The notes: generated from the letters alone by a model not told the origin. A stretch of 64,000 bases of DNA from Candidatus Omnitrophota bacterium (GCA_015233405.1 JADFXT010000005.1:10210-74209); one strand, 5' to 3'; numbered from the stretch's first letter, positions 23,183-63,908 are shown. Program-made: numbers and translations.

Positions 23183-23557
23183 ATGGGAAAGGGGCCAGGG
23201 GTTCATGGCGACGGATTCACATTATTAGAATTACTGTTAACCGTTGCTTTGTTGGTCGTAGGAGTTGTATCTGTGGTAAGTGCATTGTCTGCAGGTGTAA
23301 CCACCGACCAAAGCGTGGAAGGACAAGCAATTGCGTTGACCTTGGCCCAGGAAGAAATGGAAACTCTTAAAGACTCGAGTTGGGCATCTGTTTCTGCGGC
23401 AGGACAAAGTCAAGTTTCTGGTTTTCCGGATTACAATCAAGAGATTCTTGTTTCCGGTGATGATCCCAAAGAAGTGACCGTTAATGTTTATTGGGCATTT
23501 AAAGGAGTTCAGCAGAAGGTCAGTTTAGTCACGCTTTTGACCAACCCGTCTCCGTAA
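23183..23557 (+). CDS. minor pseudopilin (GspI-like)
   Basis: Leader ...HGDG-FTLLELLLTVALLVVG. Start taken at the internal Met 23183. Confidence 0.75.
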   Translation: MGKGPGVHGDGFTLLELLLTVALLVVGVVSVVSALSAGVTTDQSVEGQAIALTLAQEEMETLKDSSWASVSAAGQSQVSGFPDYNQEILVSGDDPKEVTVNVYWAFKGVQQKVSLVTLLTNPSP

Positions 23558-23624
23558 TAAATGTCTAAGAAAATAAGGATATTTTCTTCCAATCATAAAA
23601 AAACCGAAATTTCCTTGAAAGCCA

Positions 23625-25891: not shown

Positions 25892-25909
25892 TATATTAGA
25901 GTAATTAAA

Positions 25910-27640
25910 ATGGATAAAAATAATATAAAAACAACATTAGACGAGAAAAAGGCGGCAGGTCCTGATTTTTCTAAACTTCAGGAGGCTTTGTCTAAAGGGA
26001 AAACTGTTATCGGTATTGATATCGGTGTAAGCTCTATTGGCGTGGTCCAAACGGCGAATTATCAAGGTAAACCAACGATTATAAAAACTGCGATTGAGAG
26101 TATTAATTCTGCCAATGAGAAAGAACACGAAAAGGCAACTCTTGCCGCGCTAAAACGTGTTTTAGCTTATTTTAACACAAAGAAATCCGATGTTGTTTGT
26201 GTTATCCCCAGTTTCCAGACGCAGATTGAACATATGATCATGCCTGTCATTCCGCCAAAAGAAATTTCTGATGCCGTTTATTTGGAGATCAGCCATTCTC
26301 CACATTTTGCCAAAGAAAAGCCCATTGTGGATTTTCAAATTATGGGACGCATTATTGATAAGGGTTTGGAAAAAATAAGTGTGATTGTGGCGGCAACATC
26401 GAAAACCGTCGTTGACAAGCTTTTGGCAAAATTTATACCTCAAAAAGCCAAACTTTTAACCGGCCTAGAGAAAAAATCCTTCGAAGAATCCCCTGTAGGA
26501 GTAGAAGTTACGGCTATTATTCCCGTATCGATTGCCATGGAGAATATCATTAAGAAATCAAAACTAAACGCAGAGGAAGAGGAGATCATCGCAGTTATTG
26601 AAATTGGAGCTAGTTCTACAGAGTTAAATATTTTTCGCAATTCTCAACTGGAATTCTCCCGTCTAATTCCTGTTTCGGGTTTTGATTTAACAAAGGTCTT
26701 AACGAATGCATTATTTACGGAGACTGGAAAGGTTGAAATGACCCTTGAGGAAGCCGAACGCGTAAAAAGAGAATACGGCATTCCTTCTGCTGGAGACAAT
26801 TTTCTTATTAACAAAAAAATATCTTCCAATCAAATTCTTTCATTACTGCGTCCTCGGTTAGAACAACTTGTGGCGGAAATTTCGAGAACATTTGACTATT
26901 ATCACCAGAAAAGACCTGTGGGCAAAATTGAGCGGCTCATTATGTTTGGCGGAGGAGCTAAGCTTAAAGGATTAGCCGGTTTTCTCAATGCAGAACTTGG
27001 ATTACCGGTTCATCTGGGGAATCCTTTGCAAGATGTAGACCTTCTTTTTAAAGATGTGGTGGCTCATGAGGAGGACGCACAAAGGTTGGTCTTGGCTATA
27101 GGCGCTTCCTTAGATAATTCAAAAGGCATTAATCTTTTGCCTGTTCATTTAAAAGAGAAGAAGAAAATATTAATTCAAAGGATGTCTATTATATCAACAG
27201 CAGCTATCATCGTAGGGATTCTGGTTTTTATGTTCTTTGGATTGCTGACAAAAATGATGTTAGTCCGCGAACAATTGAAGATTGCTCAAAGTGACTTTCC
27301 TGAGTTGGCCCCACGTATTGATAAATTAAGAAATACTCTGTTAACTCAGCGGCTTGTCCGTAACCGTCCGGATGTAGGCATTTTATTTGAACAGTTGAGC
27401 AATTTGCCGGAAAATATTTATTTGACAGACTTAAGCGTAACCTCCGGCAGAGTGCAGATCACGGGATTTGTTATGGGGGAAAGCCACGAAGTCCAGGGAA
27501 TTCCCGCTCAACTTGGCATAGATTTACAAAAGAAAGGATTCCTGGTGTCTTCGAATCCTTTGTGGACAAAACGAATGCAAAAAAGAAATGCGACAGAATT
27601 TAAAATAGAAGGCTGCTTAAGCCCGACGGGATGCTACTGA
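25910..27640 (+). CDS. PilM (actin-like ATPase fold) fused to PilN
   Basis: N-terminal PilM-type domain (VIGIDIGVSSIGVV, MFGGGAKLKGL). It continues without a stop into the PilN signature INLLP (27128-27142), a TM helix and a periplasmic PilN-like domain. Confidence 0.8.
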   Translation: MDKNNIKTTLDEKKAAGPDFSKLQEALSKGKTVIGIDIGVSSIGVVQTANYQGKPTIIKTAIESINSANEKEHEKATLAALKRVLAYFNTKKSDVVCVIPSFQTQIEHMIMPVIPPKEISDAVYLEISHSPHFAKEKPIVDFQIMGRIIDKGLEKISVIVAATSKTVVDKLLAKFIPQKAKLLTGLEKKSFEESPVGVEVTAIIPVSIAMENIIKKSKLNAEEEEIIAVIEIGASSTELNIFRNSQLEFSRLIPVSGFDLTKVLTNALFTETGKVEMTLEEAERVKREYGIPSAGDNFLINKKISSNQILSLLRPRLEQLVAEISRTFDYYHQKRPVGKIERLIMFGGGAKLKGLAGFLNAELGLPVHLGNPLQDVDLLFKDVVAHEEDAQRLVLAIGASLDNSKGINLLPVHLKEKKKILIQRMSIISTAAIIVGILVFMFFGLLTKMMLVREQLKIAQSDFPELAPRIDKLRNTLLTQRLVRNRPDVGILFEQLSNLPENIYLTDLSVTSGRVQITGFVMGESHEVQGIPAQLGIDLQKKGFLVSSNPLWTKRMQKRNATEFKIEGCLSPTGCY

Positions 27641-28170
27641 TGAATATAAAGGACAAAAAACAAAGAACGCTTTTTATGTCTATCGCCGCAGGAATTATTT
27701 TGTTGGCTGTTGGGCTGGGTTTATTGTGTGTACGATTTTATAGTGAAATCAATCAAATGACTGAACTGAGAAAAAATGTCATGCAAGAAAATCTTGCGGC
27801 CCGTAATTTGCTTACCGCCAAGCATGGTTCCTGGACAGATGCCAAGTTGATATCTCCGATGAAAGTAGATGTTTTAATAGACACGTTAATAAAAATTGCT
27901 GGGCAAAACAATGTGGACTTGACCGTGTTGACGCCGCCGTCCGTTGTTAAAGAAACCGCGAAGAAGAAAAATTATTATCAACGGATTATTTTTGATATGG
28001 AAGCCAGGGCTTCTTTTAAAGATTTCGGATTATTTCTTGCTGCGGTAAGGGATACTCCAGAAGGGATTGTAGATATCAACGGCTTACATGTAGGTCCAGA
28101 TGACCTTAACTCTCAACACATTAAAGCCAGGATCACATTTATGTTGTTTGTGGACATTAACAATGGATAA
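27631..28170 (+). CDS. PilO-like pilus alignment protein
   Basis: Single N-terminal TM, a coiled segment, and a ferredoxin-like C-terminal domain (YQRIIFDMEARASFKDFGLFLAAV). Overlaps the pilMN stop. Confidence 0.7.
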   Translation: MLLMNIKDKKQRTLFMSIAAGIILLAVGLGLLCVRFYSEINQMTELRKNVMQENLAARNLLTAKHGSWTDAKLISPMKVDVLIDTLIKIAGQNNVDLTVLTPPSVVKETAKKKNYYQRIIFDMEARASFKDFGLFLAAVRDTPEGIVDINGLHVGPDDLNSQHIKARITFMLFVDINNG

Positions 28171-28657
28171 AAATAAAAAAATCATCAGCATTGTCTTGTT
28201 TCTTATCGTGCCGGCGATTTTGTTTTGGGGGAGCAACTCTAAACCAACAAAGGCGCCAACGCCCGCTTCAACGACGGCAACAATATTCCCTAATAAAAAA
28301 GAATTGACGACGTTGATGCAAGAAGACAAGGATTGGCAAGAAAAATCAGTTAAGGTCAATTGGGGTAGCCGAAATCCTTTTGATGTTAGCGTATTTAAGA
28401 CTATTGAAACATCGACAGCATCATCTTTAAAGCCTGGAACAAAGGTTCACGGGACCGCGGCGGGGGATAATGGGCTTGAACTTATGGGGATTTTATCCAG
28501 CGGCCCTAGGCCAAGCGCCATTATCAATAATGAGGTTGTCGGCCTCGGAGCTAAGATCAATGGTATGACTGTTAAAGAAATCACCGACAGGGCTGTTATC
28601 CTTACCGATGGGGAAAAAGAAAAGATTCTATCAATGCGAACGATCCTTGCCCAGTAA
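28163..28657 (+). CDS. PilP/GspC-like periplasmic protein
   Basis: The ORF track starts at 28100. Met 28163 gives MDKNKKIISIVLFLIVPAILFW. The C-terminus AIINNEVVGLGAKINGMTVKEITDRAVILTDG matches the beta-domain pattern of PilP/GspC proteins. Confidence 0.6.
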   Translation: MDKNKKIISIVLFLIVPAILFWGSNSKPTKAPTPASTTATIFPNKKELTTLMQEDKDWQEKSVKVNWGSRNPFDVSVFKTIETSTASSLKPGTKVHGTAAGDNGLELMGILSSGPRPSAIINNEVVGLGAKINGMTVKEITDRAVILTDGEKEKILSMRTILAQ

Positions 28658-52529: not shown

Positions 52530-55500
52530 ATGATAGTCACATTTAAGAAAAGACAGTTGAATTTATTTACTAAATCCATCTCGTTTCTTCTTCTCGCGAC
52601 TTTTCTATCCACAACCATCATTCCTCAGGGCTATGCCCAGAGCATAGCACTGCCGACTCCGGGCGCGATGGTGACACCGTCCATGGCGTATGTGCCAGCG
52701 CTTTTAAAAGGCATGACGCTACATAAGGACAATCCATTTCAGTTTGATTTTATTATCGATAACGGCCAAAGCGGTCTTCAAGGCGACGCTCTTAAAAATG
52801 AATCCAAACGCTTAGTCAAATATTTCCTCGCATCCATGACCGTTCCGCAGAATGACCTTTGGGTTAACTTGTCTCCGGCAGAAAAGAATCGCATTGTCCC
52901 CGACGCATTAGGCAAAACTGAATTAGGCCAGGATTTATTAGCCCAGGATTACATTTTAAAGCAATTGACTGCCACATTGATGTATCCGGAAGGGGAGTTA
53001 GGCAAAAAATTTTGGGATCGCATATATAAGGAAGCAAAAGAAAAGTACGGCGTAACCGATATTCCGACGGACACATTTAACAAAGTCTGGATTTTACCCG
53101 AATCCGCGACGATCTATGAAAATGGTGCCACGGTGTATGTTGTTGATGCGAAATTGAAGGTGATGTTGGATCAAGACTACGCAGCAATGCCCCAAAAGGG
53201 TGTCATTGCGAGGAACGAAGTGACGAAGCAATCTTTTTTAAAAGGGATTGCTTCGCAAAAAGACGCTCGCAATGACACAAATATGATGAATTCTCAGATC
53301 ATTCGTCAAATCATCCTCCCTGAAATAGAAAAAGAAGTAAACACCGGTAAAAACTTCGCCCCACTTCGCCAAATCTATCATTCGCTCATTTTAGCCAAGT
53401 GGTACAAAGAGAAGGTCCGCAACAGCATTCTTTCCTCGTCGTATATCAATAAAAATAAAGTTACAGGCATTGATGAAAATAATCCGAAAGCCAAGGAAGA
53501 AATTTACGCGCAGTACATGGAAGCCTACAAAAAGGGTGTCTATAGCTATATGAAGGAAGAGTATGACCCCAAGACCCAGCAGATCACACCTAAAAAATAT
53601 TTCTCCGGCGGGTTTAAGGATGCGGATTTGGCCATGAAAACCGCCAATGCTGCGGATATTGCCAACTCTGTCGTCGGGCAGGATTTCGCCATGTCGGTTG
53701 ATATTGCAGTAAAAGACCGACAAAATATAAGAAACATTAAGCCTTTTAACGAAGAAATTCAGCAAACCGCCAAACGATTTGGTATTAATATCTCTGATAA
53801 AACTAAAATTACTGTTTTTATCGGCGAGACCCATATTGAAAATGGCTATTATTACAACTTATTTAATCAAGTTATGAAAGAAACGCTTGGCCTCGACATT
53901 GTTTATCTTCCTTATTCCATAATAAAAGGAGACACGCAAAGAATTGCTTATATCAAACAAGAGCTGGCCAATAATCCACAGCTGGTCGGCGCTGTTGTGA
54001 CTAGCCCATTTAAAGGGAAAGATGGATTCTTTGAGCCAAAAGATAATCAAATTGGCGCCATTAATTATATTGTCAAAGACACAACCGGAAAACTTACTCG
54101 TACAGCAATCGACGGAGATGCATGGCTAAAAGGATTAATTAAAGACCTGCATAGTAATATTGATTTTAAAGACAAAACCGTTGTCATTATCGGTAGCGGT
54201 GGCGCTGCCAGAGAATTGGCAGAAATTCTTAATGGCAAAGGAATCAAAAGAATCATTTTTACCGACAAAGATGCGGAGCAAAGCGATAGTCTTAAATCTA
54301 TGATTAAAGATTTGGGCGTTGATTATACTCCGGAATTCTTTTTATCCACGGATAGCGAATATTCTTTAAAATTACACCAAGCCTTTCAAGAAGCAGACCT
54401 CATCGTTAATTCGACAGGCATTGGACGCGAAAAAACTCTTGGGCAAGATCCAGTCGATAGCCAACTCTTTCAAGGCATCAAGCCCGACGTCATTATCTCT
54501 GATCTTATCAGTAACACTTTCACACAGTTTTTAATCGATGCAAAGACCGCTGGAGCTAAACACACATTCTTTGGCCGTTCCATGTTTATTAATGGCATGG
54601 TGGACTTCATGCAAGGATGGATCAAACAAAACTTTCCCGAAAAAAAAGTCAGCGATGATAAGTTATTTAACCTGATTTCTGCCTGGCTGTATAAAAAAGA
54701 TCACCCACAAGTAAATATCACAAATCAAAAAGGGCAGAAGCTTTCTGATATTAAAGCCGCTGTTTTCGATTTCGACGATACGATTGTTTTCATGGAAGAG
54801 AATCCTGTTTCCGTAATTCGGACGAATCTGCACATAAAATCGTTGATAAGTATTTGGTATGGACCTAATCAGCCATTAACACCGTCGAAAATAAAAGAAG
54901 CGCAAGATTTCTTAAGAGATATCCAAGGCCAAACCGCGGAAGAATTCCTTGAAACAGCTATAAAAATAAAAGGCCATAATCTTAGCGGGAAAACAGTTTC
55001 GGAAATGATTGCGATACGCGAACAAAAAACCGCTGAAGCGCTTCCGGATTTGATAAAGCAATGGAAAAAGAATCTTCCGACAAGCATCTTCGTTCCCGGC
55101 GTAGTAAATTTTATTAAGGAATTGCATAAATCCAAAGTGCCCGTTTATGTTGTGACCGGAAATTCGTATTTGGAAAAATATAATCTCTTAGATGTTTTAG
55201 GCTTATCGAACTATGTGACCGGAGTTTATGACGCTGAATCCAAAGAATTTATGCATCAAGATGGTCAAAAAGAACTGATCGAAAATTTTAACAAAAATGA
55301 TGTCCTTAAGAGGATCCGTGACGACTACGCATCTGTTGGGGGCAAAATTTTGATCGCCGGCGATGGGGACAGAGAATCAGAAGTAGCCCAAGATCTTCAA
55401 GAACCTTTTATGGCCGTTGCCCATACAGCAGAGCGCGTCGAACATTTCAACAATTTAAAATCGGATATGGTTCTTGCCGGCCCGGACTTTTTTAACAATC

Positions 55501-56078
55501 TGACGATCACGCCAGCAGCTGACAACGCTCTTGTCACTAATGGCAGGCCTGCGCTCATCGGCATCGACATTGGAGGGACAAAGGTCGAAGTGGCAGTTGT
55601 CACTCAGGATGAACACGGGAATTTTACGAAAGTTCTATTTTCTCAAAAAATAGCAACGTCAGAAATTAAAGGAGACCCGGCAAAATTCTTCGATAAACTT
55701 GCAAAATTTATCCGCGGGATTAAAACGGAAGCCCAAGAGAAATATAGTATCAAGATGCTTGATGTCGTCGGCGTTGGGTCTCCGGGACGATTTATCAAGA
55801 ACGCTAACAATGAAGAAGTGATCGCAGACGGGTCCGCTGAAAATTTAGGAGACGCTCCTGGGGCTTTTAATGGCGTCAATTGCCAAAAAGAGCTCTTTGA
55901 TCGCCTGGGGGGAACCGTTGTTGTCCATAATGATGCCATTGCCCAGATGATGTATGCCTATCAAAACTTATTAGAAAATTTTCCCGATATTGCAAAAACC
56001 TTCCTGAATAAAAACATTGCTTACATTGGTCCGGGAACCGGTCTTGGCGGCGGATTTGCATTTGTCGACGAAAACTGA
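52530..56078 (+). CDS. giant modular protein, part 1: signal peptide + conserved exported N-domain + AroE-like + HAD-like + N-terminal half of an actin-fold sugar kinase
   Basis: AGGAGG RBS. Signal (IIPQGYAQS). AroE-like motifs VVTSPFKG, GAINYIV, IDGD, IGSGGAARE. HAD motifs FDFDDT, VVTGNS, GDGDRE. Kinase motifs LIGIDIGGTKVEV, VGSPGRF, VHNDAIAQ, GPGTGLGGG. The ORF ends inside the kinase domain. Confidence 0.85.
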   Translation: MIVTFKKRQLNLFTKSISFLLLATFLSTTIIPQGYAQSIALPTPGAMVTPSMAYVPALLKGMTLHKDNPFQFDFIIDNGQSGLQGDALKNESKRLVKYFLASMTVPQNDLWVNLSPAEKNRIVPDALGKTELGQDLLAQDYILKQLTATLMYPEGELGKKFWDRIYKEAKEKYGVTDIPTDTFNKVWILPESATIYENGATVYVVDAKLKVMLDQDYAAMPQKGVIARNEVTKQSFLKGIASQKDARNDTNMMNSQIIRQIILPEIEKEVNTGKNFAPLRQIYHSLILAKWYKEKVRNSILSSSYINKNKVTGIDENNPKAKEEIYAQYMEAYKKGVYSYMKEEYDPKTQQITPKKYFSGGFKDADLAMKTANAADIANSVVGQDFAMSVDIAVKDRQNIRNIKPFNEEIQQTAKRFGINISDKTKITVFIGETHIENGYYYNLFNQVMKETLGLDIVYLPYSIIKGDTQRIAYIKQELANNPQLVGAVVTSPFKGKDGFFEPKDNQIGAINYIVKDTTGKLTRTAIDGDAWLKGLIKDLHSNIDFKDKTVVIIGSGGAARELAEILNGKGIKRIIFTDKDAEQSDSLKSMIKDLGVDYTPEFFLSTDSEYSLKLHQAFQEADLIVNSTGIGREKTLGQDPVDSQLFQGIKPDVIISDLISNTFTQFLIDAKTAGAKHTFFGRSMFINGMVDFMQGWIKQNFPEKKVSDDKLFNLISAWLYKKDHPQVNITNQKGQKLSDIKAAVFDFDDTIVFMEENPVSVIRTNLHIKSLISIWYGPNQPLTPSKIKEAQDFLRDIQGQTAEEFLETAIKIKGHNLSGKTVSEMIAIREQKTAEALPDLIKQWKKNLPTSIFVPGVVNFIKELHKSKVPVYVVTGNSYLEKYNLLDVLGLSNYVTGVYDAESKEFMHQDGQKELIENFNKNDVLKRIRDDYASVGGKILIAGDGDRESEVAQDLQEPFMAVAHTAERVEHFNNLKSDMVLAGPDFFNNLTITPAADNALVTNGRPALIGIDIGGTKVEVAVVTQDEHGNFTKVLFSQKIATSEIKGDPAKFFDKLAKFIRGIKTEAQEKYSIKMLDVVGVGSPGRFIKNANNEEVIADGSAENLGDAPGAFNGVNCQKELFDRLGGTVVVHNDAIAQMMYAYQNLLENFPDIAKTFLNKNIAYIGPGTGLGGGFAFVDEN
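53201..53279. repeat. TGTCAT-terminated nested palindromic element lying inside the coding sequence
   Basis: Outer arms gtgtcattgcgag (53201-53213) / ctcgcaatgacac (53267-53279). Inner arms cgaagcaatc (53225-53234) / gattgcttcg (53247-53256). Translates as VIARNEVTKQSFLKGIASQKDARNDT. Confidence 0.75.
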
Positions 56079-59000
56079 CGGACATATTTATGACATGAAG
56101 ATCCTTGATAAACCGGTTACCCTTGCTTTGAACTGGCAGGGACAAAAAATGGAAATTCCTTTATTTGAAATGGCACAAGACTTATTCTCCGGCGGCAATG
56201 GGATCGGAGAAACTCTCATGATGAGGATCAATCAAAAAGCCCTAGATATGGGATTGGAAAAACCTTTTTCCTATCAGGAAGGGTTGAATGAAAAAGAAAT
56301 TATTGGTTTTATGAAAGCATCAGGAGGAAAACTTTTGAGCGATATTCTTGTTGCAGGAAAAGCTGATTCTCGCTATGAAATCGCTCAACAGATAGCCGCA
56401 TTTGAAGGTCAAATGTTAGCTCTCATTATTGAACATATTTATAACGGCGATATTCGGAAATGGAACCCGTCGGCAGATTGGTCACAAGAGGATAGGGATT
56501 TTGTCAAAGGGACCAAGAATTTCATTTTGGGCGGGAGCGTTACGAAAGGGTCATTCGGAACCATTGTTGAAAAAACAGCCCGGGAAGAATTAGCCGCCAA
56601 AGGATTGGTCGATGTTCAATTGATCCTTCCGAAGATGGATACCGCTAAAGCCGGAGTTTTGGGTGCAGCCGGATTTGTCAACGATGTTGCCAAAATGAAA
56701 ACAACAGATTCTGATTCAGCGATGGTAGCAGCCCAAGGCGTTTTGGTGAATGGCGTTGTAGTCGATAAAAATTTAGCGCTCGAAGCCATAAATTTATTAG
56801 AAAAGCCCGTCAAAGAACGTTTTATCTATAAAATCCCAACAGCAATTTTTAGACGCTATCCTTACCTTGCTCCGGTTTTAGATTTAACTTTGCCGGCCAA
56901 GGAAACAGAATCCAAGAAACGAGAAACCGCGCGGCTTTTTATCGAGAAATTCATCCGTGCCAAGCATCCGAATTCCGTAAAATCTGTTTCCACAGAAACG
57001 GAATCCTTGGCTCTTCAAATGGAACGCGTCAGCCCTACGGATTTTGGCCTGCGATTTTCTTTTGATCCGTTTGGATTAAGAGTCAAACGGCTTGCCAAAG
57101 AATTAGCGGCATTCTTAAAAGAAGAGAAAGCTCGTATAGAAAAAATCATGCTGCCCAATATTTATCAAGTCCCGTCAGCTCAAGCCACCCGAGCCATCGA
57201 TATGGATTTAAGAAGAATCAAATCAGAGCTTATCGAACAAACTCCAGAAGAATTTGAAAGCGACTTAGCTGCTTTAAAAAATCAAACACTTTCTTATGAA
57301 CAACGTAATACCAAGATGTATCCTTTGATCCTTAAAAGCAAAGGAGAGAGGCTAAACAGAGTAAAGAGCACTCTTCTGGAAATCTTTCGTACAGAAGCCG
57401 GCATCATGCGCGAACGGGCGTGGAACGGTTTACGTTTTATGGGCATCCCGGGAGAAGAAATTCAAGAAACCCCCGCGACTTCCGTTACTACAGACAAGGC
57501 GATGATATCAATCACAGCAGGCCTTATTGGATTTGGTGTTATAGCGACGTATATCGGCATTCGAAAATTTTTCCGTTACCACACCATTAACGGTGCCATG
57601 TCCATGTTAGAAAATCCTTTGTCAGAACGGTCATTAGAGAAAGCGAACCATTTCTTAAGGAACCAACAGGATTGGCCAGGTACCCCAGACACCAAGGAAA
57701 GACTTTTTAACGGATATATGAACGTCTTAAAAAATTCTATGCATATAGGGTCCATGATCGAAGCCATTGAACAATTGGCCAATTTAGGTATCAGGCAGAC
57801 TGAAGCAATTGATACCATTGCCGATTACTTAGGCGGGTTACGAAAAAGAGACGCCCAATTTTTGGCTTCATTGAAGAAAAAATATCCTCCACAAAATGAC
57901 TTTAGAGATTATTTGGCCGACTGGATGTATAAATTGGATTTTAAGTTTTATTTTAGCATAGGCGCAAATACGCGTTTTGCGGCAAGGGCCGCTTTAGTCA
58001 AGCTCAAAGCTCCAGAAGAGAAATATGTTCCCGGGTATTTCGCCGCCGTGAAGGCCGATATCAAAGAAAATATGCTTAACGGCAAAAAACACATCGCCGA
58101 AAACGCTATGGCCGAATTAAGGGAATTGAACTCCGACAAGGCCAAAAAATTACGTTACGATGGGTATTTGGAAATCCTCAAAACCCCGGAAATGGCGGAT
58201 TATGTTCTCCAGGAAGCCTTGGAACAACTCGAGGTCCTGGGACATCCTCAGGCAAAAACTTTTAAGAAATTTTATGAAAAACTAGGGGCTAGAACCTTTG
58301 GACAAATTTTTGTTACCGGCACAATATATGAAAAAAGATTTCAAGAGGCTTGGGAAATCCAAAACTCAGGATACGAGTTTGAAATAATTTATAATGAAGA
58401 AAAGAGCCATTTGAAGCAATACACGGTTGATCCCGGAGATGGGGGCGGCCTGCTGTTAAGGGAAAGGAAAATCATTGACGTGCCGGCGCATCCGATTGAA
58501 ATCGTTAAAACAGAAAAATTGCCGGACGCTTTACCATCGACAGACAAGGCGATGCTAGTTCGTTGGACAACGGATTGGTATATTGAAAAAGGGCTGAATA
58601 TCAATATTGTTTCCAAGGAAAACACGAAAATCCATATCAAAACAATTAAAATCCTTACCCATCGCTATCTCAAAAGTCCGAAAAATAGGGAGATAATAAA
58701 ACAAGCACTGTTCAATATGCTGACCGATTTCTCAAAAGAGGCGAGAGAAGCTACCAGAGCCGCGTTGGCTAAACTCAATATCTCAAAAGTAGAAATTATT
58801 GCTGCGAATATGCACGTCCTCAAAACTGTTTGGTTTGATCCGGCCATCCCGGAAGCTATTGAACAGTTGAAACAGTTAGAGTCAGACGACACAAGAGAAC
58901 CGCTGATCAACGGTTATCTGGAGGTCCTGAAAACTACGTCTTCCACTGAGTTGGCAATCCAAGGGACGGTTGAACGGTTGAGGCACTTAAGATCGGAGGA

Positions 59001-59850
59001 CACAAAAGAACGAATTATTAACGGGTACCTGGAAGTCCTCAAAACTCCTGGGAACGGGAGTGCCATTGAAGAAACCATTAAAGAATTGGGTGACTTGAAA
59101 GACCCAAGGGCAATACCATTGATACTTAAATATTTTTCCATATACCCGACGATAGCAACGATTGCTTTAACTAAACTTCATGTTCCCCCAAAAACACTCA
59201 TTACCAAAAACATGAACGTCCTGAAAACCCCATTGGAGTCTTATATTCTCCAACAAGCGATTGAACAGTTAAGACAATTAAAATCGGACGATACAAGAGA
59301 ACTGTTTATTACCGGTTATCTGGACGTCATGAAAACTTCTGACTGGTCTGCCTCCATTAAAGAAGCCATTCAACAGTTAGCTGCGCTGGGACATCCTCAA
59401 GTTAAAATTTTCCAAGAAGTCAGTAACAGGATATCTTCTTCTCCTATCCCTGGAGAAACATTCGGCCTATTTTTTAGGCAGGCCTTGGACATCCGGTTGT
59501 CAGGGTGCGATTTCAAGATTCCTGAGTATTCCAATCCCTGGATTTATTATCGAAGAAATGACCTTGATAATCCGGTCATTGTCTCAATCGGGGCAGTCGA
59601 CAACGCGCTGGTGACCAAGAAAAACGTCGGTGGTATTGACATGAACAACATTAATTTAAAAGGCGATGGGAAGGGGACGTTCACTGCGTTTACGTTCCAG
59701 TTCGACTTAAAGGTAATGGAACAATTCAAAGATGTGCCCGTCGATAACCTTTCTCCGGTGATTATCAATATCGTGCCGATTCCAAGCATTCTGCCGCTTC
59801 TTGGACTTAAAGAAGATACGACGGAAAAACTAGCAAAAGCGGAAAATTAA
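56017..59850 (+). CDS. giant modular protein, part 2 (+1 frame): C-terminal half of the sugar kinase + linker + TM helix + HEAT-like repeats + C-terminal GGIDMN module
   Basis: Kinase C-half ILGGSVTKGSFG...AKAGVLGAAGF. TM MISITAGLIGFGVIATYIGI. Repeated NGYLEVLKT...AIEQL(x)xL units. The end is VGGIDMNNINLKGDG...IVPIPSILPLLGLKE. The Met at 56017 is probably not the real start (see findings). Confidence 0.8.
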   Translation: MLTLVREPVLAADLHLSTKTDGHIYDMKILDKPVTLALNWQGQKMEIPLFEMAQDLFSGGNGIGETLMMRINQKALDMGLEKPFSYQEGLNEKEIIGFMKASGGKLLSDILVAGKADSRYEIAQQIAAFEGQMLALIIEHIYNGDIRKWNPSADWSQEDRDFVKGTKNFILGGSVTKGSFGTIVEKTAREELAAKGLVDVQLILPKMDTAKAGVLGAAGFVNDVAKMKTTDSDSAMVAAQGVLVNGVVVDKNLALEAINLLEKPVKERFIYKIPTAIFRRYPYLAPVLDLTLPAKETESKKRETARLFIEKFIRAKHPNSVKSVSTETESLALQMERVSPTDFGLRFSFDPFGLRVKRLAKELAAFLKEEKARIEKIMLPNIYQVPSAQATRAIDMDLRRIKSELIEQTPEEFESDLAALKNQTLSYEQRNTKMYPLILKSKGERLNRVKSTLLEIFRTEAGIMRERAWNGLRFMGIPGEEIQETPATSVTTDKAMISITAGLIGFGVIATYIGIRKFFRYHTINGAMSMLENPLSERSLEKANHFLRNQQDWPGTPDTKERLFNGYMNVLKNSMHIGSMIEAIEQLANLGIRQTEAIDTIADYLGGLRKRDAQFLASLKKKYPPQNDFRDYLADWMYKLDFKFYFSIGANTRFAARAALVKLKAPEEKYVPGYFAAVKADIKENMLNGKKHIAENAMAELRELNSDKAKKLRYDGYLEILKTPEMADYVLQEALEQLEVLGHPQAKTFKKFYEKLGARTFGQIFVTGTIYEKRFQEAWEIQNSGYEFEIIYNEEKSHLKQYTVDPGDGGGLLLRERKIIDVPAHPIEIVKTEKLPDALPSTDKAMLVRWTTDWYIEKGLNINIVSKENTKIHIKTIKILTHRYLKSPKNREIIKQALFNMLTDFSKEAREATRAALAKLNISKVEIIAANMHVLKTVWFDPAIPEAIEQLKQLESDDTREPLINGYLEVLKTTSSTELAIQGTVERLRHLRSEDTKERIINGYLEVLKTPGNGSAIEETIKELGDLKDPRAIPLILKYFSIYPTIATIALTKLHVPPKTLITKNMNVLKTPLESYILQQAIEQLRQLKSDDTRELFITGYLDVMKTSDWSASIKEAIQQLAALGHPQVKIFQEVSNRISSSPIPGETFGLFFRQALDIRLSGCDFKIPEYSNPWIYYRRNDLDNPVIVSIGAVDNALVTKKNVGGIDMNNINLKGDGKGTFTAFTFQFDLKVMEQFKDVPVDNLSPVIINIVPIPSILPLLGLKEDTTEKLAKAEN
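58855..59337 (+). repeat. three diverged 81-nt coding repeats (HEAT-like unit AIEQLxxLxSxDTxExxINGYLEVLKT)
   Basis: Units at 58855-58935, 58966-59046 and 59257-59337 align at the DNA level without gaps, with many identical stretches (attgaacagtt, acaagagaac, ggttatctgga, gaaaact). Confidence 0.7.
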
Positions 59851-59881: not shown

Positions 59882-59914
59882 AGGGGCTGAGTCTTCAGCC
59901 CCTTTTAATTTTAT
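59882..59914 (+). terminator. rho-independent terminator of the giant gene
   Basis: Stem ggggctga / tcagcccc (59883-59890 / 59895-59902), loop gtct, then ttttaatttt. Confidence 0.8.
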
Positions 59915-59974: not shown

Positions 59975-60003
59975 TTGTCGAGAAGCAAATCATATGCTAT
60001 TCT
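59975..60003 (+). promoter_or_regulatory. candidate sigma70-type promoter for the riboswitch leader
   Basis: TTGTCG (59975-59980), 17-nt spacer, TATTCT (59998-60003). It sits about 10 nt upstream of the aptamer. Confidence 0.35.
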
Positions 60004-60013
60004 TGTAATAGAA

Positions 60014-60104
60014 TTTGGTAAAGGTAAACTACTCGAAAGAGTAGGGCGCAAAGCCGTGAACCTAAAACCTTCTGGAGGAAGGGAATGGTTGTCTGGCTGC
60101 CGAA
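60014..60104 (+). promoter_or_regulatory. c-di-GMP-I (GEMM-I) riboswitch aptamer
   Basis: Core CTACTC-GAAA-GAGTAG-GGCGCAAAGCC-GTGAA-CCTAAAACC closely parallels the V. cholerae Vc2 core CCAUUC-GAAA-GAGUGG-GACGCAAAGCC-UCCGG-CCUAAACC (recalled from memory). GAAA tetraloop hairpin 60029-60044. Receptor-bearing hairpin gcc/aacc/ccttc...gaagg/ggtt/ggc at 60053-60097. Possible P1 tttgg/ccgaa (60014-18 / 60100-04). Confidence 0.8.
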
Positions 60105-60126
60105 GCGGAGGCTTCGTTAAACATAT

Positions 60127-60157
60127 CGCGCCCCTTTACTAGAGGCGCGTTTTTATT
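60127..60157 (+). terminator. intrinsic terminator forming the riboswitch expression platform
   Basis: Stem cgcgcc/ggcgcg (60127-60132 / 60144-60149) plus 2 further bp, then a T5 run at 60150-60154. The 5' arm gcgccc (60128-33) is complementary to aptamer core gggcgc (60044-49). Confidence 0.7.
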
Positions 60158-60385
60158 AGTTGCCTTCCATTATGATGGAAAAGGCAACTAGAAGACCCTT
60201 TGAGATCCTAAAATCTATTCAAGGACTCAAAGGGTAAAAAGTATGGGGGAGTAAGCATATAACCATTTGAGCTTAAGAAGTGTAATGAAAAAGCTCGATG
60301 GTCTAGAGAAAGGGGTTGTAAGTAGGGGGAACTCTAACAGATAAACTCCCAGGTGAGGTGGCCCCCTGCCTCACCTTTCCTGGGG
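60157..60385 (+). other. array of four strong hairpins in the rtcB leader (unclassified structured RNA or palindromic repeat units)
   Basis: Hairpin A 60157-60190 (14 bp). B 60195-60235 (10+4 bp, contains CCTAAAA). C 60262-60302 (5+6 bp). D 60346-60385 (8-bp core aggtgagg/cctcacct with C5 loop). G5 tracts at 60245-49 and 60325-29 are complementary to the D loop. Confidence 0.5.
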
Positions 60386-60501
60386 TGTTTGGCATATGAT
60401 GTAGGAAAATGGTGGACACTGTCGTTTTTCATAAATATACTACATTCATGTGTTAGGCATCCCAGGCCGGATTTTCCTGCCTGTCGTTATCAAAAACATC
60501 C

Positions 60502-61680
60502 ATGAGCTTTCAACTTATCCACAATATTCCTGTCTGGGGCGAACCCATTGACGAGGCGGTTAATCAACTTATCAACTGCGCTAAGACTGCAGACAAATGC
60601 GCTTTAATGGCGGACCATCATCCTGGCTATGCCGTGCCTATTGGCGGCGTTGTGGCGTATAGGGATAAGATCAGCCCGTCGGGTGTTGGCTATGACATTG
60701 CCTGCGGTAATAAAGCCGTACGCCTTGATATTCCTGCCGACGAAGTTAAAGATCACATCAAAGAGATCATGACCGACATTTTTGAAACGCTCTCATTCGG
60801 CATTGGCCTAAAAAATAATGAACGCGTGGATCATCCATTATTTCACGATGACGCGGCATGGCAGCTTGGTGTCGCCAAAGAACTTAAATTAAAAAAACTG
60901 GCGCAGGAACAATTGGGCACCATCGGTTCAGGGAATCATTACGTTGATTTATTTACCGACGAAGAAAACAGGGTTTGGCTTGGCATCCATTTTGGGTCGC
61001 GCGGGCTTGGCCATAGATTAGCCAAATATTTTATCCAAAAAGGCGGCGGGCGAGATGGCATGAACGTAGACCCGGTGGTGCTTAATGTGAAAAGCGATCT
61101 CGCGCAAGATTATCTTTTAGGTATGAAACTCGCCGGGCGTTATGCCTATGCGGGACGAGATTGGGTTTGTAAACGCATTGCTCAATTATTGCAGGCAAAT
61201 ATCTTGGAAGAAGTCCATAACCATCATAATTACGCTTGGGCCGAAGAACATAATGGAGAAAAACTTTGGGTCATCCGCAAAGGCGCGACCCCGGCGTTTC
61301 CGGGACAGAAAGGTTTTATCGGCGGGAGCATGGGAGATATTTCCGTGATCGTCGAAGGAATTGACTCGGATGAAAGCCGGCGGGCCATGTATTCGACCGT
61401 CCACGGTGCCGGACGCCTGATTTCACGGACAGCCGCAGCCGGAAGGAAAAGAGGCCGTTATCGTATGGGCGGAAAAATTACGCGCGAGATGATGAAAGAG
61501 TGGGTGGATTCTAAAAATGTTACGCTTATCGGCGCAGGAACAGATGAGTCTCCGCATTGTTATAAAAGATTACCGGAAGTCTTGAAATATCATGAAAAAA
61601 CCATTAGAATTCTCCATACGCTTACCCCGATTGGGGTAGCAATGGCAGGAGAAGACGTTTTCGACCCATTTAAAGATTAA
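60502..61680 (+). CDS. rtcB: RNA ligase RtcB (3'-phosphate/5'-hydroxyl RNA-splicing ligase family)
   Basis: Motifs HHPGYAVPIGGV, GVGYDIACG, GSGNHY, FGSRGLGH, HNHHNYA, IRKGATPA, GGSMGD, VHGAGR. Confidence 0.93.
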   Translation: MSFQLIHNIPVWGEPIDEAVNQLINCAKTADKCALMADHHPGYAVPIGGVVAYRDKISPSGVGYDIACGNKAVRLDIPADEVKDHIKEIMTDIFETLSFGIGLKNNERVDHPLFHDDAAWQLGVAKELKLKKLAQEQLGTIGSGNHYVDLFTDEENRVWLGIHFGSRGLGHRLAKYFIQKGGGRDGMNVDPVVLNVKSDLAQDYLLGMKLAGRYAYAGRDWVCKRIAQLLQANILEEVHNHHNYAWAEEHNGEKLWVIRKGATPAFPGQKGFIGGSMGDISVIVEGIDSDESRRAMYSTVHGAGRLISRTAAAGRKRGRYRMGGKITREMMKEWVDSKNVTLIGAGTDESPHCYKRLPEVLKYHEKTIRILHTLTPIGVAMAGEDVFDPFKD

Positions 61681-61780: not shown

Positions 61781-61798
61781 AACAAAAAGGAGAAGAAA

Positions 61799-63190
61799 GT
61801 GCAGACAACAAAATTCTTTTTAAAAGATAAGGATGTTCCCAAAAAGTGGTATAACCTGGCTGCGGATTTGCCGACCCCGCTATTGCCGCCTTTAGGCCCA
61901 GACGGAAAACCTATAACGCCGGATATGCTTAAGCCGGTCTTTCCAGAGAATCTTATCGAACAGGAAGTGAGTACCAAACGTTGGATTGATATTCCCGAAG
62001 AAATCCTTGAAATACTTTACCGCTGGAGGCCGACTCCACTAAGACGAGCTATTTATCTGGAAAAATATTTAAAAACCCCGGCGAGAATTTATTATAAAGA
62101 TGAAAGTGTCAGTCCCGCCGGAAGCCATAAGACCAACACCTCTATTCCTCAAGCATGGTATAACAAAAAATTTGGTATCAAGAAATTAACCACCGAAACC
62201 GGCGCCGGCCAATGGGGATGCGCACTAGCGTTCGCCTGCCAGTTGGTCGGATTAGAATGTAAAGTTTACATGGTCCGTGTCAGTTTTGAACAGAAGCCGA
62301 TGCGGAAAACCATGATGCAGGTCTGGGGCGCGAAATGTCTGGCAAGCCCGTCGGAATTTACGCAAGCCGGACGAGACATTTTAAAGAAAATGCCGGATAC
62401 TCCGGGAAGCTTAGGCATTGCCATCAGCGAAGCCGTCGAGGACGCCGTTTCGGATAAAACCGGTCAGACCAGGTATTCCTTGGGAAGTGTTTTAAACCAC
62501 GTTCTATTACATCAGACCATTATTGGACTTGAAGCCAAAAAACAGCTGGCCATTGCCAAAGAAAAAAAGGTGGACGTTGTCATCGGCTGTGCCGGCGGCG
62601 GAAGTAATTTTGGCGGCATCGCTTTTCCGTTTGCCTACGATAAAATTCACGGCAAGAAGATCACAATCATTCCGGTCGAATCCGCATCGTGTCCTAAAAT
62701 GACGCGCGGCAAATTCTCCTATGACTTCGGCGATGTTTCCGGAATGACGCCGCTATTGGCCATGATGACATTAGGCCACCAATTTATTCCTGCGCCGATT
62801 CACGCCGGAGGGCTTCGTTATCATGCTATGGCGCCATTAGTCAGCCAAGGAATTGTAGAAGGGCTTTTAACTCCTAAAGCTTATGACCAAGCCCAGGCCT
62901 ATGAAGCCGCGCTTCTGTGGGCCAAGACCGAAGGCTTTATCTGTGCGCCGGAGACGAGCCATGCGATTGCCTGCGTTATCGACGAGGCCAAGAAAGCCAA
63001 GGCTGAAGGCAAACAAAAAGTCATTCTTTTTAACTATAGCGGCCACGGATTAATGGATTTGGTCGGCTATGATAAATATTTATCCGGGCAACTAAAAGGA
63101 TATTGCTTACCGGAAGATGAACTGATCGACACCTTAAAGACATTGGAAGGCTTCCCTAAAGCTAATGCCCGAAAAACAGGAAAGTGGTAG
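61799..63190 (+). CDS. trpB: tryptophan synthase beta-like protein, TrpB2 type
   Basis: GTG start at 61799 with an AAAAAGGAGAAG RBS. The track ORF begins at 61730, inside the repeat. Motifs KWYNLAADLP, WRPTPL, YYKDESVSPAGSHKTNT, TETGAGQWG, GCAGGGSNFGG. About 463 aa, as for the TrpB2 class. Confidence 0.9.
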   Translation: MQTTKFFLKDKDVPKKWYNLAADLPTPLLPPLGPDGKPITPDMLKPVFPENLIEQEVSTKRWIDIPEEILEILYRWRPTPLRRAIYLEKYLKTPARIYYKDESVSPAGSHKTNTSIPQAWYNKKFGIKKLTTETGAGQWGCALAFACQLVGLECKVYMVRVSFEQKPMRKTMMQVWGAKCLASPSEFTQAGRDILKKMPDTPGSLGIAISEAVEDAVSDKTGQTRYSLGSVLNHVLLHQTIIGLEAKKQLAIAKEKKVDVVIGCAGGGSNFGGIAFPFAYDKIHGKKITIIPVESASCPKMTRGKFSYDFGDVSGMTPLLAMMTLGHQFIPAPIHAGGLRYHAMAPLVSQGIVEGLLTPKAYDQAQAYEAALLWAKTEGFICAPETSHAIACVIDEAKKAKAEGKQKVILFNYSGHGLMDLVGYDKYLSGQLKGYCLPEDELIDTLKTLEGFPKANARKTGKW

Positions 63191-63201
63191 TCCCCTCACA
63201 A

Positions 63202-63300
63202 TGTCATCCCCGAATGCATTAGTCGGGGAACCATAGAGGTTGAAGGCATGGATTCCCGACCTGCCTGACGGTAGGCAGGCAAAAAATTTCGGGAATGACA
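63202..63300. repeat. TGTCAT-terminated MITE/REP-like palindromic element
   Basis: Terminal inverted repeats tgtcatccccgaa (63202-63214) / ttcgggaatgaca (63288-63300), with 1 mismatch. Internal hairpins tccccga/tcgggga, attcccga/tcgggaat and cctgcct/aggcagg. Confidence 0.7.
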
Positions 63301-63335
63301 AACTTTTTAAAAATTTTAGTTTGAGGACAAATATC

Positions 63336-63908
63336 ATGAAAAAATCTATTGGAGCAAGTACGATCGTTTTTCCCACACCCGTTTTTATCGTCGGAAGTTA
63401 TGATAATAAAGGCGTTGCTGATGTCATGACTGCCGCATGGGGAGGGATTGCATGTTCCATCCCGCCATGCGTAAGCGTCTCCATCAGGCCGGAGAGGCAA
63501 ACACATGCCAACATTATGGCCAAAAAGGCTTTCACAGTAAGCATCCCATCGTCGGATTATCTTAAAGAAGCGGATTATTTCGGCATTGTCTCCGGAAAGA
63601 ATGAAGATAAATTTAAAGTCTCCGGATTAACGCCGGTCAAAAGCGATATTGTCGACGCGCCTTACGTTAAAGAATTTCCATTTGTCCTAGAATGCTCACT
63701 ATTTAAGACGCTCGAACTCGGGGCCCACACGGTGTTTGTCGGCGAGATCAAAGATGTCAAGGTCGAAGAATCTTGTTTAAATAACGAAGGTAAGCCCGAT
63801 ATTGTTAAACTTAAGCCCATGATTTTTGATCCTGCAACATGGGGTTATTATGGATTCGGAAAATTTTTAGACAAAGCTTTTACAGCCGGAAAAACGGTAA
63901 AGAAATGA
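63336..63908 (+). CDS. flavin reductase-like (FMN-binding split-barrel) protein
   Basis: Start at ATG 63336 with a GAGGA RBS. The track ORF start at 63240 lies in the repeat element. Typical block FPTPVFIVGSYDNKGVADVMTAAWGG...VSIRPERQTHANI. Confidence 0.85.
   Translation: MKKSIGASTIVFPTPVFIVGSYDNKGVADVMTAAWGGIACSIPPCVSVSIRPERQTHANIMAKKAFTVSIPSSDYLKEADYFGIVSGKNEDKFKVSGLTPVKSDIVDAPYVKEFPFVLECSLFKTLELGAHTVFVGEIKDVKVEESCLNNEGKPDIVKLKPMIFDPATWGYYGFGKFLDKAFTAGKTVKK

What the first reader, a model, noticed from the sequence alone, without database searches (positions are those of the whole stretch)
60014..60157. c-di-GMP-I (GEMM-I) riboswitch with terminator upstream of the RNA ligase gene rtcB
Seen in the sequence:
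- A GAAA-capped 6-bp hairpin (ctactc/gagtag).
- It is immediately followed by GGCGCAAAGCC.
- Then a second hairpin carries CCTAAA...AATGG, a tetraloop-receptor-like pair.
- This order and spacing match the core of the Vc2 c-di-GMP-I aptamer as I recall it.
- The nucleotide just 5' of TAAAC is G (60024). From memory, this is the position that separates c-di-GMP (G) from 3'3'-cGAMP (A) aptamers.
- A cgcgcc/ggcgcg + U5 terminator follows.
- Its 5' arm can alternatively pair with the aptamer core gggcgc (60044-49).
- The putative P1 3' strand (ccgaa) overlaps a competing hairpin cgaagc-ggag-gcttcg (60101-60116).

Together these suggest a transcriptional switch.

Unusual aspects: the next gene is rtcB, about 345 nt further on. 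RtcB is an RNA repair/splicing ligase. GEMM-I is usually linked to motility, pili, adhesion or signalling genes, not RNA repair. No GGDEF, EAL or PilZ genes are in the window.
Basis: partly seen in the sequence, partly recalled or inferred. Interest (0 to 1): 0.78.

Follow-up and report, generated by a model that had tools for sequence, protein, structure and literature searches.

The report
c-di-GMP riboswitch ahead of rtcB
This is a genuine, canonical c-di-GMP-sensing riboswitch, predicted to stop transcription when the signal molecule is bound; it sits 400 bases ahead of an RNA-repair ligase gene (rtcB) in an uncultured Omnitrophota bacterium, a pairing seen in none of 165 related rtcB loci.

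Summary
Rfam's c-di-GMP-I model (RF01051) matches window 60013-60104 (+) over its full length at 67.7 bits (gathering score 35, E 4e-11). It is the only Rfam hit in the 64 kb. The tetraloop, its receptor and the ligand-contacting positions are all canonical, so the expected ligand is c-di-GMP, not cGAMP or the GGC variant.

A 6-bp G/C hairpin plus U5 (60127-60154) follows. Sixteen bases of its 5' arm and loop are complementary to two aptamer strands. Unconstrained folding gives this antiterminator (-55.2 kcal/mol, terminator probability 0). With the aptamer enforced, the terminator forms (probability 0.93-0.99). This is the logic of an OFF switch like C. difficile Cd1.

The next gene is an intact rtcB (60502-61680). 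The 345-nt gap has no credible ORF and no known RNA family. It is unusually structured, including a 26-bp hairpin that forms only on the + strand.

The link to rtcB is inferred from position only. None of 165 other rtcB loci, about 16 of them from Omnitrophota, has the aptamer, and no close relative of this genome is available.

Verdict: a new member of a known riboswitch class with an unusual, unconserved gene association. Interest is modest.

The parts
59882..59913 (+). Intrinsic terminator of the upstream 1277-aa gene (stop at 59850). It shows that the riboswitch starts a new transcription unit.
   Evidence: 9-bp stem AGGGGCTGA/TCAGCCCCT followed by TTTTAATTTTA.
59975..60003 (+). Candidate sigma-70-type promoter for the riboswitch: TTGTCG, 17 nt, TATTCT. 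The predicted start is near 60010, 2-3 nt before the aptamer.
   Evidence: Read directly from the sequence. It matches 8 of 12 positions, below the 9/12 cut-off of the scan, so this is inference only.
60013..60104 (+). c-di-GMP-I (GEMM-I) aptamer.
- P1: 60014-17 with 60101-04.
- Junction pairs: 60024-25 with 60048-49.
- P2: 60029-44, with GAAA loop 60035-38.
- P3: 60052-98, with receptor CCUAAA 60061-66 and AAUGG 60084-88.
- Ligand positions: G60023 (G20), A60050 (A47), C60100 (C92).
- Interhelical pair: C60047-G60091 (C44-G83).
   Evidence: RF01051 at 67.7 bits against a gathering score of 35, E 4e-11, full model. My own model R1 scores 92 bits. Contacts are from PMC4744006. The mapping onto Vc2 numbering goes through the Rfam consensus and my recollection of the numbering.
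60101..60116 (+). Hairpin CGAAGC-GGAG-GCUUCG. It uses the 3' strand of P1 and so competes with P1 when no ligand is bound.
   Evidence: -9.0 kcal/mol on its own. It is present in the unconstrained MFE fold and shortened when the aptamer is enforced.
60127..60154 (+). Intrinsic terminator: 6 G-C pairs (60127-32 with 60144-49), an 11-nt loop, then UUUUU.
   Evidence: -10 kcal/mol. Pair probabilities are 0.93-0.99 when the aptamer is enforced and 0.0 otherwise. The consensus scan did not list it on the + strand because its loop exceeds the 8-nt limit.
60128..60143 (+). Antiterminator strand, made of the terminator 5' arm and loop. 60128-32 pairs with GGCGC 60045-49, and 60133-43 pairs with UUUGGUAAAGG 60014-24.
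   Evidence: All 16 pairs are in the MFE fold (-55.2 kcal/mol) with probabilities 0.97-1.0.
60157..60235 (+). Two perfect 10-bp palindromic hairpins directly after the terminator: 60157-66/60181-90 and 60195-204/60226-35. Function unknown.
   Evidence: Found by the repeat finder. Folding gives -37.5 kcal/mol with z -7.8, equally stable on both strands.
60342..60466 (+). Strand-specific RNA structure in the leader. A 26-bp hairpin (60379-60404 with 60440-60466) has 6 G.U pairs and one bulge. Its 5' arm can alternatively pair upstream with 60343-53. It ends 35 nt before the rtcB start codon.
   Evidence: + strand -42.7 kcal/mol (z -5.3) against - strand -20.8 (z -1.0). This is the largest strand asymmetry of any 100-nt window in the 64 kb. 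Pair list.
60502..61680 (+). rtcB, an RNA 3'-phosphate/5'-OH ligase of 392 aa. It is the first ORF downstream of the riboswitch.
   Evidence: Pfam PF01139 at 229.9 bits. 100% identical to NCBI MBF0522323.1 from a Candidatus Omnitrophica MAG. Aligns with solved RtcB structures, including the HGAGR motif.
61799..63908 (+). Possible co-transcribed genes: a TrpB-like PLP enzyme (GTG 61799 with AAGGAG, to 63190) and a flavin reductase-like protein (63240-63908).
   Evidence: NCBIfam NF009057 at 689.5 bits and Pfam PF01613 at 115.5 bits. No G/C-rich + strand terminator was found between rtcB and these genes. Operon membership is inferred.

Best explanation
A canonical class I c-di-GMP riboswitch opens a transcription unit whose first gene is rtcB, and it works as a transcription-termination OFF switch.

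Without ligand:
- The hairpin 60101-16 takes the 3' strand of P1.
- The freed aptamer strands 60014-24 and 60045-49 pair with 60128-43, which is the terminator's 5' arm and loop.
- The terminator cannot form, so RNA polymerase reads on into the 345-nt structured leader and rtcB, and probably into the TrpB-like and flavin-reductase genes.

With c-di-GMP bound:
- P1 and the three-helix junction are locked.
- 60127-32 is free to pair with 60144-49, and transcription stops at the U-run 60150-54.
- High c-di-GMP would therefore lower RtcB expression.

What is shown: the aptamer's identity, its key nucleotides, and the two mutually exclusive folds.
What is inferred: ligand binding, the direction of regulation in vivo, the promoter, and that read-through transcripts reach rtcB.
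For: - Aptamer: RF01051 at 67.7 bits against 35, full length.
- Canonical binding-site positions, read from the and alignments. Contacts as in PMC4744006.
- The MFE fold of 60010-60158 is the antiterminator at -55.2 kcal/mol. Aptamer plus hairpin plus terminator is -45.4 kcal/mol.
- Terminator pair probability is 0.0 in the free ensemble and 0.93-0.99 with the aptamer enforced. The antiterminator goes from 0.97-1.0 to 0.
- The same architecture, where aptamer and terminator coexist and an antiterminator competes, is documented for the Cd1 OFF switch (PMC9262584). Class I c-di-GMP riboswitches of C. difficile are transcriptional OFF switches (PMC11477304).
- The upstream gene has its own terminator at 59882-59903.
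- There is no credible ORF between the riboswitch and rtcB. GenBank protein accessions of the two flanking genes are consecutive.
- The leader carries a hairpin that exists only in + strand RNA. This implies transcription from upstream through 60379-60466 towards rtcB.
- All genes in the window are on the + strand.
Against: - The aptamer is 400 nt and the terminator 345 nt from the rtcB start.
- A sigma-70-like site (60413-60441, 10 of 12) lies 60 nt before rtcB and could drive rtcB independently.
- None of 165 other rtcB loci has a c-di-GMP-I aptamer.
- In the closest Omnitrophota relatives, rtcB abuts the preceding gene by 3-14 nt in unrelated operons.
- No covariation test is possible, because no close relative of this genome is in the collections.
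- The terminator stem is short (6 bp) with a large 11-nt loop.
- No paper in the searchable library links c-di-GMP riboswitches with rtcB.
Confidence: 0.6

Rival explanations
1. The riboswitch is functional but does not control rtcB. It gates a non-coding RNA encoded in 60157-60470, or it is an 'orphan' whose terminated 140-nt transcript is the product. rtcB is transcribed from its own promoter near 60413-60441.
For: - There is a 345-nt gap and a promoter-like site at 10 of 12.
- rtcB has no leader or riboswitch in any other locus examined.
- In C. difficile, c-di-GMP-I riboswitches precede antisense RNAs and tiny ORFs, and one is an orphan (PMC11477304, Table 1).
- The leader is exceptionally structured (z -5.97).
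Against: - Promoter-like sites occur at the chance rate in this region: 5 found against 4.4 expected.
- The site lies in the loop of a hairpin that forms only in + strand RNA. That region is therefore itself transcribed from further upstream.
- No + strand intrinsic terminator separates 60157 from rtcB.
- The leader matches no RNA family even at E up to 10 and no tRNA-like gene.
Confidence: 0.28
2. The aptamer belongs to a specificity variant, either 3'3'-cGAMP (GEMM-Ib) or the c-di-GMP-I-GGC class, and senses something other than c-di-GMP.
For: In E-value mode the clan competition lists RF03167 (c-di-GMP-I-GGC) at 58.7 bits, just under its gathering score of 59.
Against: - The discriminating positions are canonical.
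- G is at the G20 position (60023). cGAMP aptamers carry A there, which is my knowledge of Kellenberger 2015 and Nelson 2015.
- The motif reads GCAAAGC, with A60050, where the GGC consensus has GCGAAGC.
- RF01051 scores higher in bits and nearly doubles its threshold.
Confidence: 0.05
3. It is a decaying relic left by a rearrangement. It is recognisable as an aptamer but no longer regulates anything.
For: It is a single occurrence in an atypical 650-nt intergenic region. There is no conservation and no synteny with other rtcB loci.
Against: - Every conserved position, the tetraloop-receptor pair and a 16-bp antiterminator matched to a terminator are intact.
- A relic would be expected to score near or below the threshold and to lose the platform complementarity.
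Confidence: 0.07

Closest known systems
Cd1 (flgB) c-di-GMP-I riboswitch of Clostridioides difficile
   Same: It has the same aptamer class. It is a transcriptional OFF switch in which the ligand-bound aptamer and the terminator coexist, while an antiterminator built from an aptamer strand and the terminator 5' strand competes (PMC9262584; PMC11477304). From my own knowledge, Cd1 also sits at the start of a long (about 500 nt) 5' UTR rather than next to the start codon.
   Different: Cd1 controls flagellar genes in a Firmicute. Here the downstream gene is an RNA ligase in Omnitrophota. Here the antiterminator uses the 5' aptamer strand plus the junction GGCGC, and an extra hairpin (60101-16) competes with P1. 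The leader here has no invertible element; only short palindromes were found.
Vc2 c-di-GMP-I riboswitch of Vibrio cholerae (structural reference)
   Same: GAAA tetraloop on P2, a CCUAAA/AAUGG-type receptor in P3, equivalents of G20, A47 and C92, and the C44-G83 interhelical pair (alignment; PMC4744006).
   Different: Vc2 lies upstream of tfoY and is not followed by a simple intrinsic terminator (my knowledge). P1 here is only about 4 bp.
Bc1 c-di-GMP-I riboswitch of the Bacillus cereus group (long expression platform)
   Same: A class I aptamer followed by a long, structured expression platform whose output is not a simple one-terminator decision (PMC11218506).
   Different: Bc1 has two tandem terminators 28 bp apart and dual transcription-translation control. 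Here there is one terminator, then 345 nt of hairpins without U-tracts.
RtcR/sigma-54-controlled rtcBA operons and ncRNA genes next to rtcB (Salmonella rsr-yrlBA-rtcBA; Pelobacter mutant tRNA-rtcAB)
   Same: rtcB is preceded by structured non-coding RNA sequence (PMC3543383; the Salmonella case is from my own knowledge).
   Different: There is no rtcR, rtcA or rsr here. There is no tRNA-like or Y-RNA-like match. The regulation would be by a riboswitch rather than by RtcR.

Membership tests
c-di-GMP-I riboswitch (GEMM-I, Rfam RF01051) | Covariance-model score at or above the curated gathering score, over the full model | tested here: met
   67.7 bits against 35, model positions 1-87 of 87, E 4e-11.
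c-di-GMP-I riboswitch (GEMM-I, Rfam RF01051) | Two adjacent hairpins (P2, P3) with a GNRA tetraloop on P2 docking into a receptor in P3 | tested here: met
   GAAA at 60035-38 on a 6-bp stem. CCUAAA at 60061-66 and AAUGG at 60084-88 in P3. Docking itself is not testable here.
c-di-GMP-I riboswitch (GEMM-I, Rfam RF01051) | Ligand-contacting nucleotides G20, A47 and C92, and the interhelical C44-G83 pair (Vc2 numbering) | tested here: met
   G60023, A60050, C60100, and C60047 with G60091, read from the alignment. The contact list is from PMC4744006. The mapping to Vc2 numbers is partly from memory.
c-di-GMP-I riboswitch (GEMM-I, Rfam RF01051) | Binds c-di-GMP with high affinity and selectivity | not testable with these tools
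   Needs in-line probing or ITC of a 60010-60110 transcript.
c-di-GMP-I riboswitch (GEMM-I, Rfam RF01051) | Expression platform whose fold depends on the state of the aptamer | tested here: met
   In silico only. Terminator probability is 0.0 in the free ensemble and 0.93-0.99 with the aptamer enforced. There is a 16-bp antiterminator.
c-di-GMP-I riboswitch (GEMM-I, Rfam RF01051) | Lies in the 5' leader of, and on the same strand as, the gene it controls | tested here: inconclusive
   It is on the same strand with no ORF in between. However, it is 400 nt from the rtcB ATG, a promoter-like site lies in between, and the arrangement is not conserved.
3'3'-cGAMP riboswitch (GEMM-Ib) | A instead of G at the position equivalent to Vc2 G20 | tested here: not met
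   G at 60023, and the neighbouring 60024 is also G. The rule itself is from my knowledge of Kellenberger 2015 and Nelson 2015.
c-di-GMP-I-GGC variant (Rfam RF03167) | Score at or above the gathering score of 59, and G at the A47-equivalent position (consensus GCGAAGC) | tested here: not met
   58.7 bits, below 59. The sequence reads GCAAAGC with A60050.
Cd1-type transcriptional OFF switch | The ligand-bound aptamer and the terminator can coexist, and the antiterminator needs aptamer strands | tested here: met
   The aptamer-enforced fold contains the terminator. The free fold pairs 60014-24 and 60045-49 with 60128-43. The definition is from PMC9262584. This is thermodynamic modelling only.

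The most novel reading that the evidence does not exclude
c-di-GMP gates production of a roughly 300-nt, strand-specifically structured RNA together with RtcB. On this reading the RNA is not just a spacer. It would be a functional partner, substrate or second regulatory module of the RNA ligase, in the way Y-RNA-like or tRNA-like genes accompany rtcB elsewhere. That would tie second-messenger signalling directly to RNA repair.
Probability: 0.1. Interest if true: 0.6.

Novelty: new member of a known kind. Interest (0 to 1): 0.3.

Why it matters
If c-di-GMP really sets RtcB levels, RNA repair/ligation would join motility, adhesion and biofilm formation as an output of c-di-GMP signalling. The example would come from a barely studied, uncultured phylum (Omnitrophota). 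It would also be a compact, well-formed OFF-switch example for riboswitch engineering.

As it stands, the aptamer class and the mechanism are textbook. The gene association is a single, unconserved case, so its significance is mainly as an annotation and a lead.

Tried and rejected
1. Conservation of the riboswitch-rtcB pairing.
- I fetched 80 rtcB loci from species-representative genomes, 80 from metagenomes and 5 from exact look-ups of the closest homologues.
- None has the aptamer by regular expressions, by Rfam gathering scans of 40 loci, or by my own covariance model R1.

2. Similarity of the 650-nt intergenic region to those loci or to the rest of the window. None was found.

3. Pseudogene remnants of the genes that precede rtcB in other Omnitrophota. 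None was found.

4. A second, degenerate aptamer in the leader. This was prompted by a 73% direct repeat, 60058-79 against 60204-25. R1 and Rfam find nothing there.

5. A tRNA-like, Y-RNA-like or other known RNA in the leader. ARAGORN finds none, and Rfam at E up to 10 gives only chance-level hits.

6. A small protein gene in the leader. There are only 25-50-aa ORFs starting with TTG or GTG and without a ribosome-binding site.

7. Closer relatives through the upstream 1277-aa gene. It is an ORFan with no homologue. Exact look-up of RtcB found no other contig.

8. Literature link between c-di-GMP riboswitches and rtcB. None of the co-mentions checked makes this link.

9. The original description of the GGC and UAU variants could not be retrieved. 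The meaning of 'GGC' therefore rests on the Rfam consensus and on my memory.

Full report
**1. What is there**

A scan of both strands of the whole window against Rfam 15 gives exactly one match above a gathering score. It is RF01051 (c-di-GMP-I) at 60013-60104 on the + strand, at 67.7 bits against a threshold of 35, with E 4e-11 and all 87 model positions matched. This is not a chance resemblance.

**2. Anatomy of the aptamer**

Read through the Rfam alignment, the parts are as follows.
- P1 is short: U60014-A60104, U15-A103, U16.G102 and G17-C101.
- The junction pairs are G60024-C60049 and U60025.G60048.
- P2 is the 6-bp hairpin 60029-60044, capped by GAAA.
- P3 is 60052-60098 and carries CCUAAA (60061-66) and AAUGG (60084-88), a close variant of the 11-nt tetraloop receptor.

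The three nucleotides that contact c-di-GMP in Vc2 are G20, A47 and C92, and there is a universally conserved interhelical pair (PMC4744006). These map to G60023, A60050 and C60100, and to C60047 with G60091. The mapping to Vc2 numbers goes through the Rfam consensus and my recollection of the numbering.

Both bases are G, so the conclusion is unchanged.

In E-value mode the clan filter displays RF03167 (c-di-GMP-I-GGC) at 58.7 bits, just under its threshold of 59. That variant's consensus reads GCGAAGC where this sequence has the canonical GCAAAGC. The aptamer is therefore the ordinary c-di-GMP type. It is neither the GGC variant nor the cGAMP type, which has A at position 20 (my knowledge).

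**3. Expression platform**

Downstream lie three elements:
- a hairpin 60101-60116 that uses the 3' strand of P1;
- a terminator of six G-C pairs (60127-32 with 60144-49) with an 11-nt loop;
- a U5 run (60150-54).

The terminator's 5' arm and loop (60128-60143) are complementary to two aptamer segments. GCGCC pairs with GGCGC 60045-49, and CCUUUACUAGA pairs with UUUGGUAAAGG 60014-24, giving 16 pairs in all.

Folding results support a two-state switch.
- The unconstrained MFE of 60010-60158 is this antiterminator fold at -55.2 kcal/mol.
- Aptamer plus hairpin plus terminator is -45.4 kcal/mol.
- In the Boltzmann ensemble the terminator pairs have probability 0.0 and the antiterminator pairs 0.97-1.0.
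- With the aptamer helices enforced as a proxy for bound ligand, the terminator pairs rise to 0.93-0.99 and the antiterminator falls to 0.
- In growing transcripts the antiterminator appears as soon as 60132-60143 is made.

The roughly 10 kcal/mol gap is of the order that tight c-di-GMP binding could offset (inference). This is the logic of an OFF switch: ligand leads to termination.

It is the same design as the Cd1 riboswitch, where aptamer and terminator coexist and an antiterminator competes (PMC9262584). Class I c-di-GMP riboswitches of C. difficile are described as transcriptional OFF switches (PMC11477304).

**4. Surroundings**

The window comes from a Candidatus Omnitrophica/Omnitrophota MAG. 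RtcB is 100% identical to NCBI MBF0522323.1 on a 145,861-bp contig.

The upstream gene (56017-59850) is a 1277-aa protein with no Pfam or NCBIfam match and no homologue among 5.8 billion proteins. It ends with its own terminator at 59882-59903. The riboswitch therefore starts a new transcription unit. A weak promoter candidate, TTGTCG-17-TATTCT at 59975-60003, would place the start 2-3 nt before the aptamer (read; inference).

The next ORF is rtcB (60502-61680).
- Pfam RtcB scores 229.9 bits over nearly the whole profile.
- The conserved Cys and His motifs, including HGAGR, are visible in the translation and in the alignment to Pyrococcus RtcB.

It is followed by a TrpB-like PLP enzyme and a flavin reductase-like protein on the same strand, with no G/C-rich terminator between them.

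**5. The 345-nt leader**

No credible ORF lies between the terminator and rtcB. GenBank also annotates none, since the accessions of the flanking proteins are consecutive. The leader matches no Rfam family even at E up to 10 and no tRNA-like gene.

It nevertheless folds much better than shuffled sequence (z -5.97). Six of the 25 most stable 100-nt windows of the whole 64 kb lie in this one intergenic region, 60021-60480: four in the riboswitch itself (aptamer to terminator), two in the leader.

Its structural elements fall into two groups.
- Two perfect 10-bp palindromes follow the terminator directly (60157-90 and 60195-235).
- A 26-bp hairpin (60379-60404 with 60440-60466) contains six G.U pairs. 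It forms only on the + strand: -42.7 kcal/mol (z -5.3) against -20.8 (z -1.0) on the - strand. This is the largest strand asymmetry in the window.

That asymmetry argues that this part is transcribed rightwards as RNA, from a start upstream of 60379. It favours a long leader continuous with the riboswitch transcript.

The only sigma-70-like site before rtcB (60413-60441, 10 of 12) lies in the loop of this hairpin. Such sites occur here at the chance rate, 5 found against 4.4 expected.

The 5' arm of the long hairpin can alternatively pair upstream with 60343-53. This might be a second toggle, but without homologues it cannot be tested.

**6. Is the association with rtcB conserved?**

No. I fetched 80 rtcB loci from species-representative genomes, 80 from metagenomes and 5 by exact look-up of the closest homologues. 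About 16 of them are Omnitrophota at 71-76% protein identity.

None contains a c-di-GMP-I aptamer by any of three methods:
- regular expressions;
- Rfam gathering scans of 40 loci;
- a covariance model built from this aptamer and the two Rfam consensus sequences. Its best non-self score is 13.6 bits, against 92 for the window.

In the closest relatives rtcB follows the preceding gene by only 3-14 nt, and the neighbours differ from locus to locus: a Na/H exchanger, ThiS, or DUF2490. The leader has no similarity to any of these loci and holds no pseudogene remnants.

No close relative of this genome exists in the collections, so no covariation or synteny test of the leader is possible. The searchable literature does not link c-di-GMP riboswitches with rtcB.

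**7. c-di-GMP context**

None of the 53 large ORFs has a GGDEF, EAL, HD-GYP or PilZ domain, and there is no GG[DE]EF motif in six frames.

The window does hold a type IV pilus/T2SS-like cluster at 17637-28657. Its ATPase (19776-21395) carries an MshEN domain (PF05157, 68.5 bits). From my own knowledge, MshEN is a described c-di-GMP receptor domain. The N-terminus resembles the binding motif as I recall it. This suggests that the organism uses c-di-GMP.

**8. Verdict**

- The aptamer is a canonical c-di-GMP-I riboswitch (confidence about 0.95).
- Its platform is a Cd1-like transcriptional OFF switch (about 0.7, in silico only).
- Control of rtcB is the most economical reading of the locus (about 0.6), but it rests on position and on the strand-specific leader structure.
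- The main rival is a riboswitch that gates only a non-coding RNA, or is an orphan, with rtcB on its own promoter (about 0.28). This has precedent in C. difficile.

This is a new member of a known kind with an unusual, unconserved gene association. Interest is modest at 0.3. It would rise if GEMM-I before rtcB recurred elsewhere, or if the leader proved to be a functional RNA.

Noticed in passing
window 19776-21395 (cluster 17637-28657): A type IV pilus/T2SS-like gene cluster: secretin, response regulator, T2SSE ATPase, T2SSF, pseudopilins and PilM. Its ATPase carries an MshEN domain (PF05157, 68.5 bits), a described c-di-GMP receptor domain. Its N-terminus (SIGELLLEKGILSQREWDQAQ...) resembles the binding motif as I recall it. 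It is a likely c-di-GMP effector 40 kb from the riboswitch.
   Followed up: partly
window 56017-59850: A 1277-aa ORF directly upstream of the riboswitch. It has no Pfam or NCBIfam match and no homologue except itself among 5.8 billion proteins. It contains several HEAT-like repeats of the form ..NGYLEVLKT..AIE.L..L...
   Followed up: partly
window 60379-60466: A 26-bp hairpin with 6 G.U pairs that forms only on the + strand. It has the largest strand asymmetry of folding energy in the whole window. Its 5' arm can alternatively pair with 60343-60353. Function unknown.
   Followed up: partly
window 60157-60235: Two perfect 10-bp inverted repeats, back to back, right after the riboswitch terminator: TAGTTGCCTT/AAGGCAACTA and ACCCTTTGAG/CTCAAAGGGT. 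They are equally stable on both strands, so they could be protein-binding sites on DNA or RNA hairpins.
   Followed up: no
window 1-64000: Nearly all ORFs of at least 120 aa lie on the + strand; the three on the - strand are embedded within longer + strand ORFs, across 64 kb.
   Followed up: no
window 52530-56078: A 1182-aa protein combining shikimate-dehydrogenase-like, HAD-hydrolase and ROK-kinase-like regions. This is an unusual fusion.
   Followed up: no
window 60490-60502 and 61785-61801: rtcB has no recognisable Shine-Dalgarno sequence before its ATG. The next gene has a strong AAGGAG before a GTG start at 61799. The longer TTG-61730 ORF is probably an over-extension.
   Followed up: no
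L090 200-1000; L095, L096, L098, L099 60-1500: In several Acidobacteria-type rtcB loci, arrays of 5-10 tRNA genes lie within 2 kb upstream of rtcB. This fits the recurring theme of RNA genes next to rtcB.
   Followed up: no
L161, L163, L164, L165: In the closest Omnitrophota relatives rtcB starts 3-14 nt after the preceding gene. The neighbours differ each time: a Na/H exchanger, ThiS with molybdopterin genes, or DUF2490. One locus also has a LigT-like 2'-5' RNA ligase nearby.
   Followed up: partly
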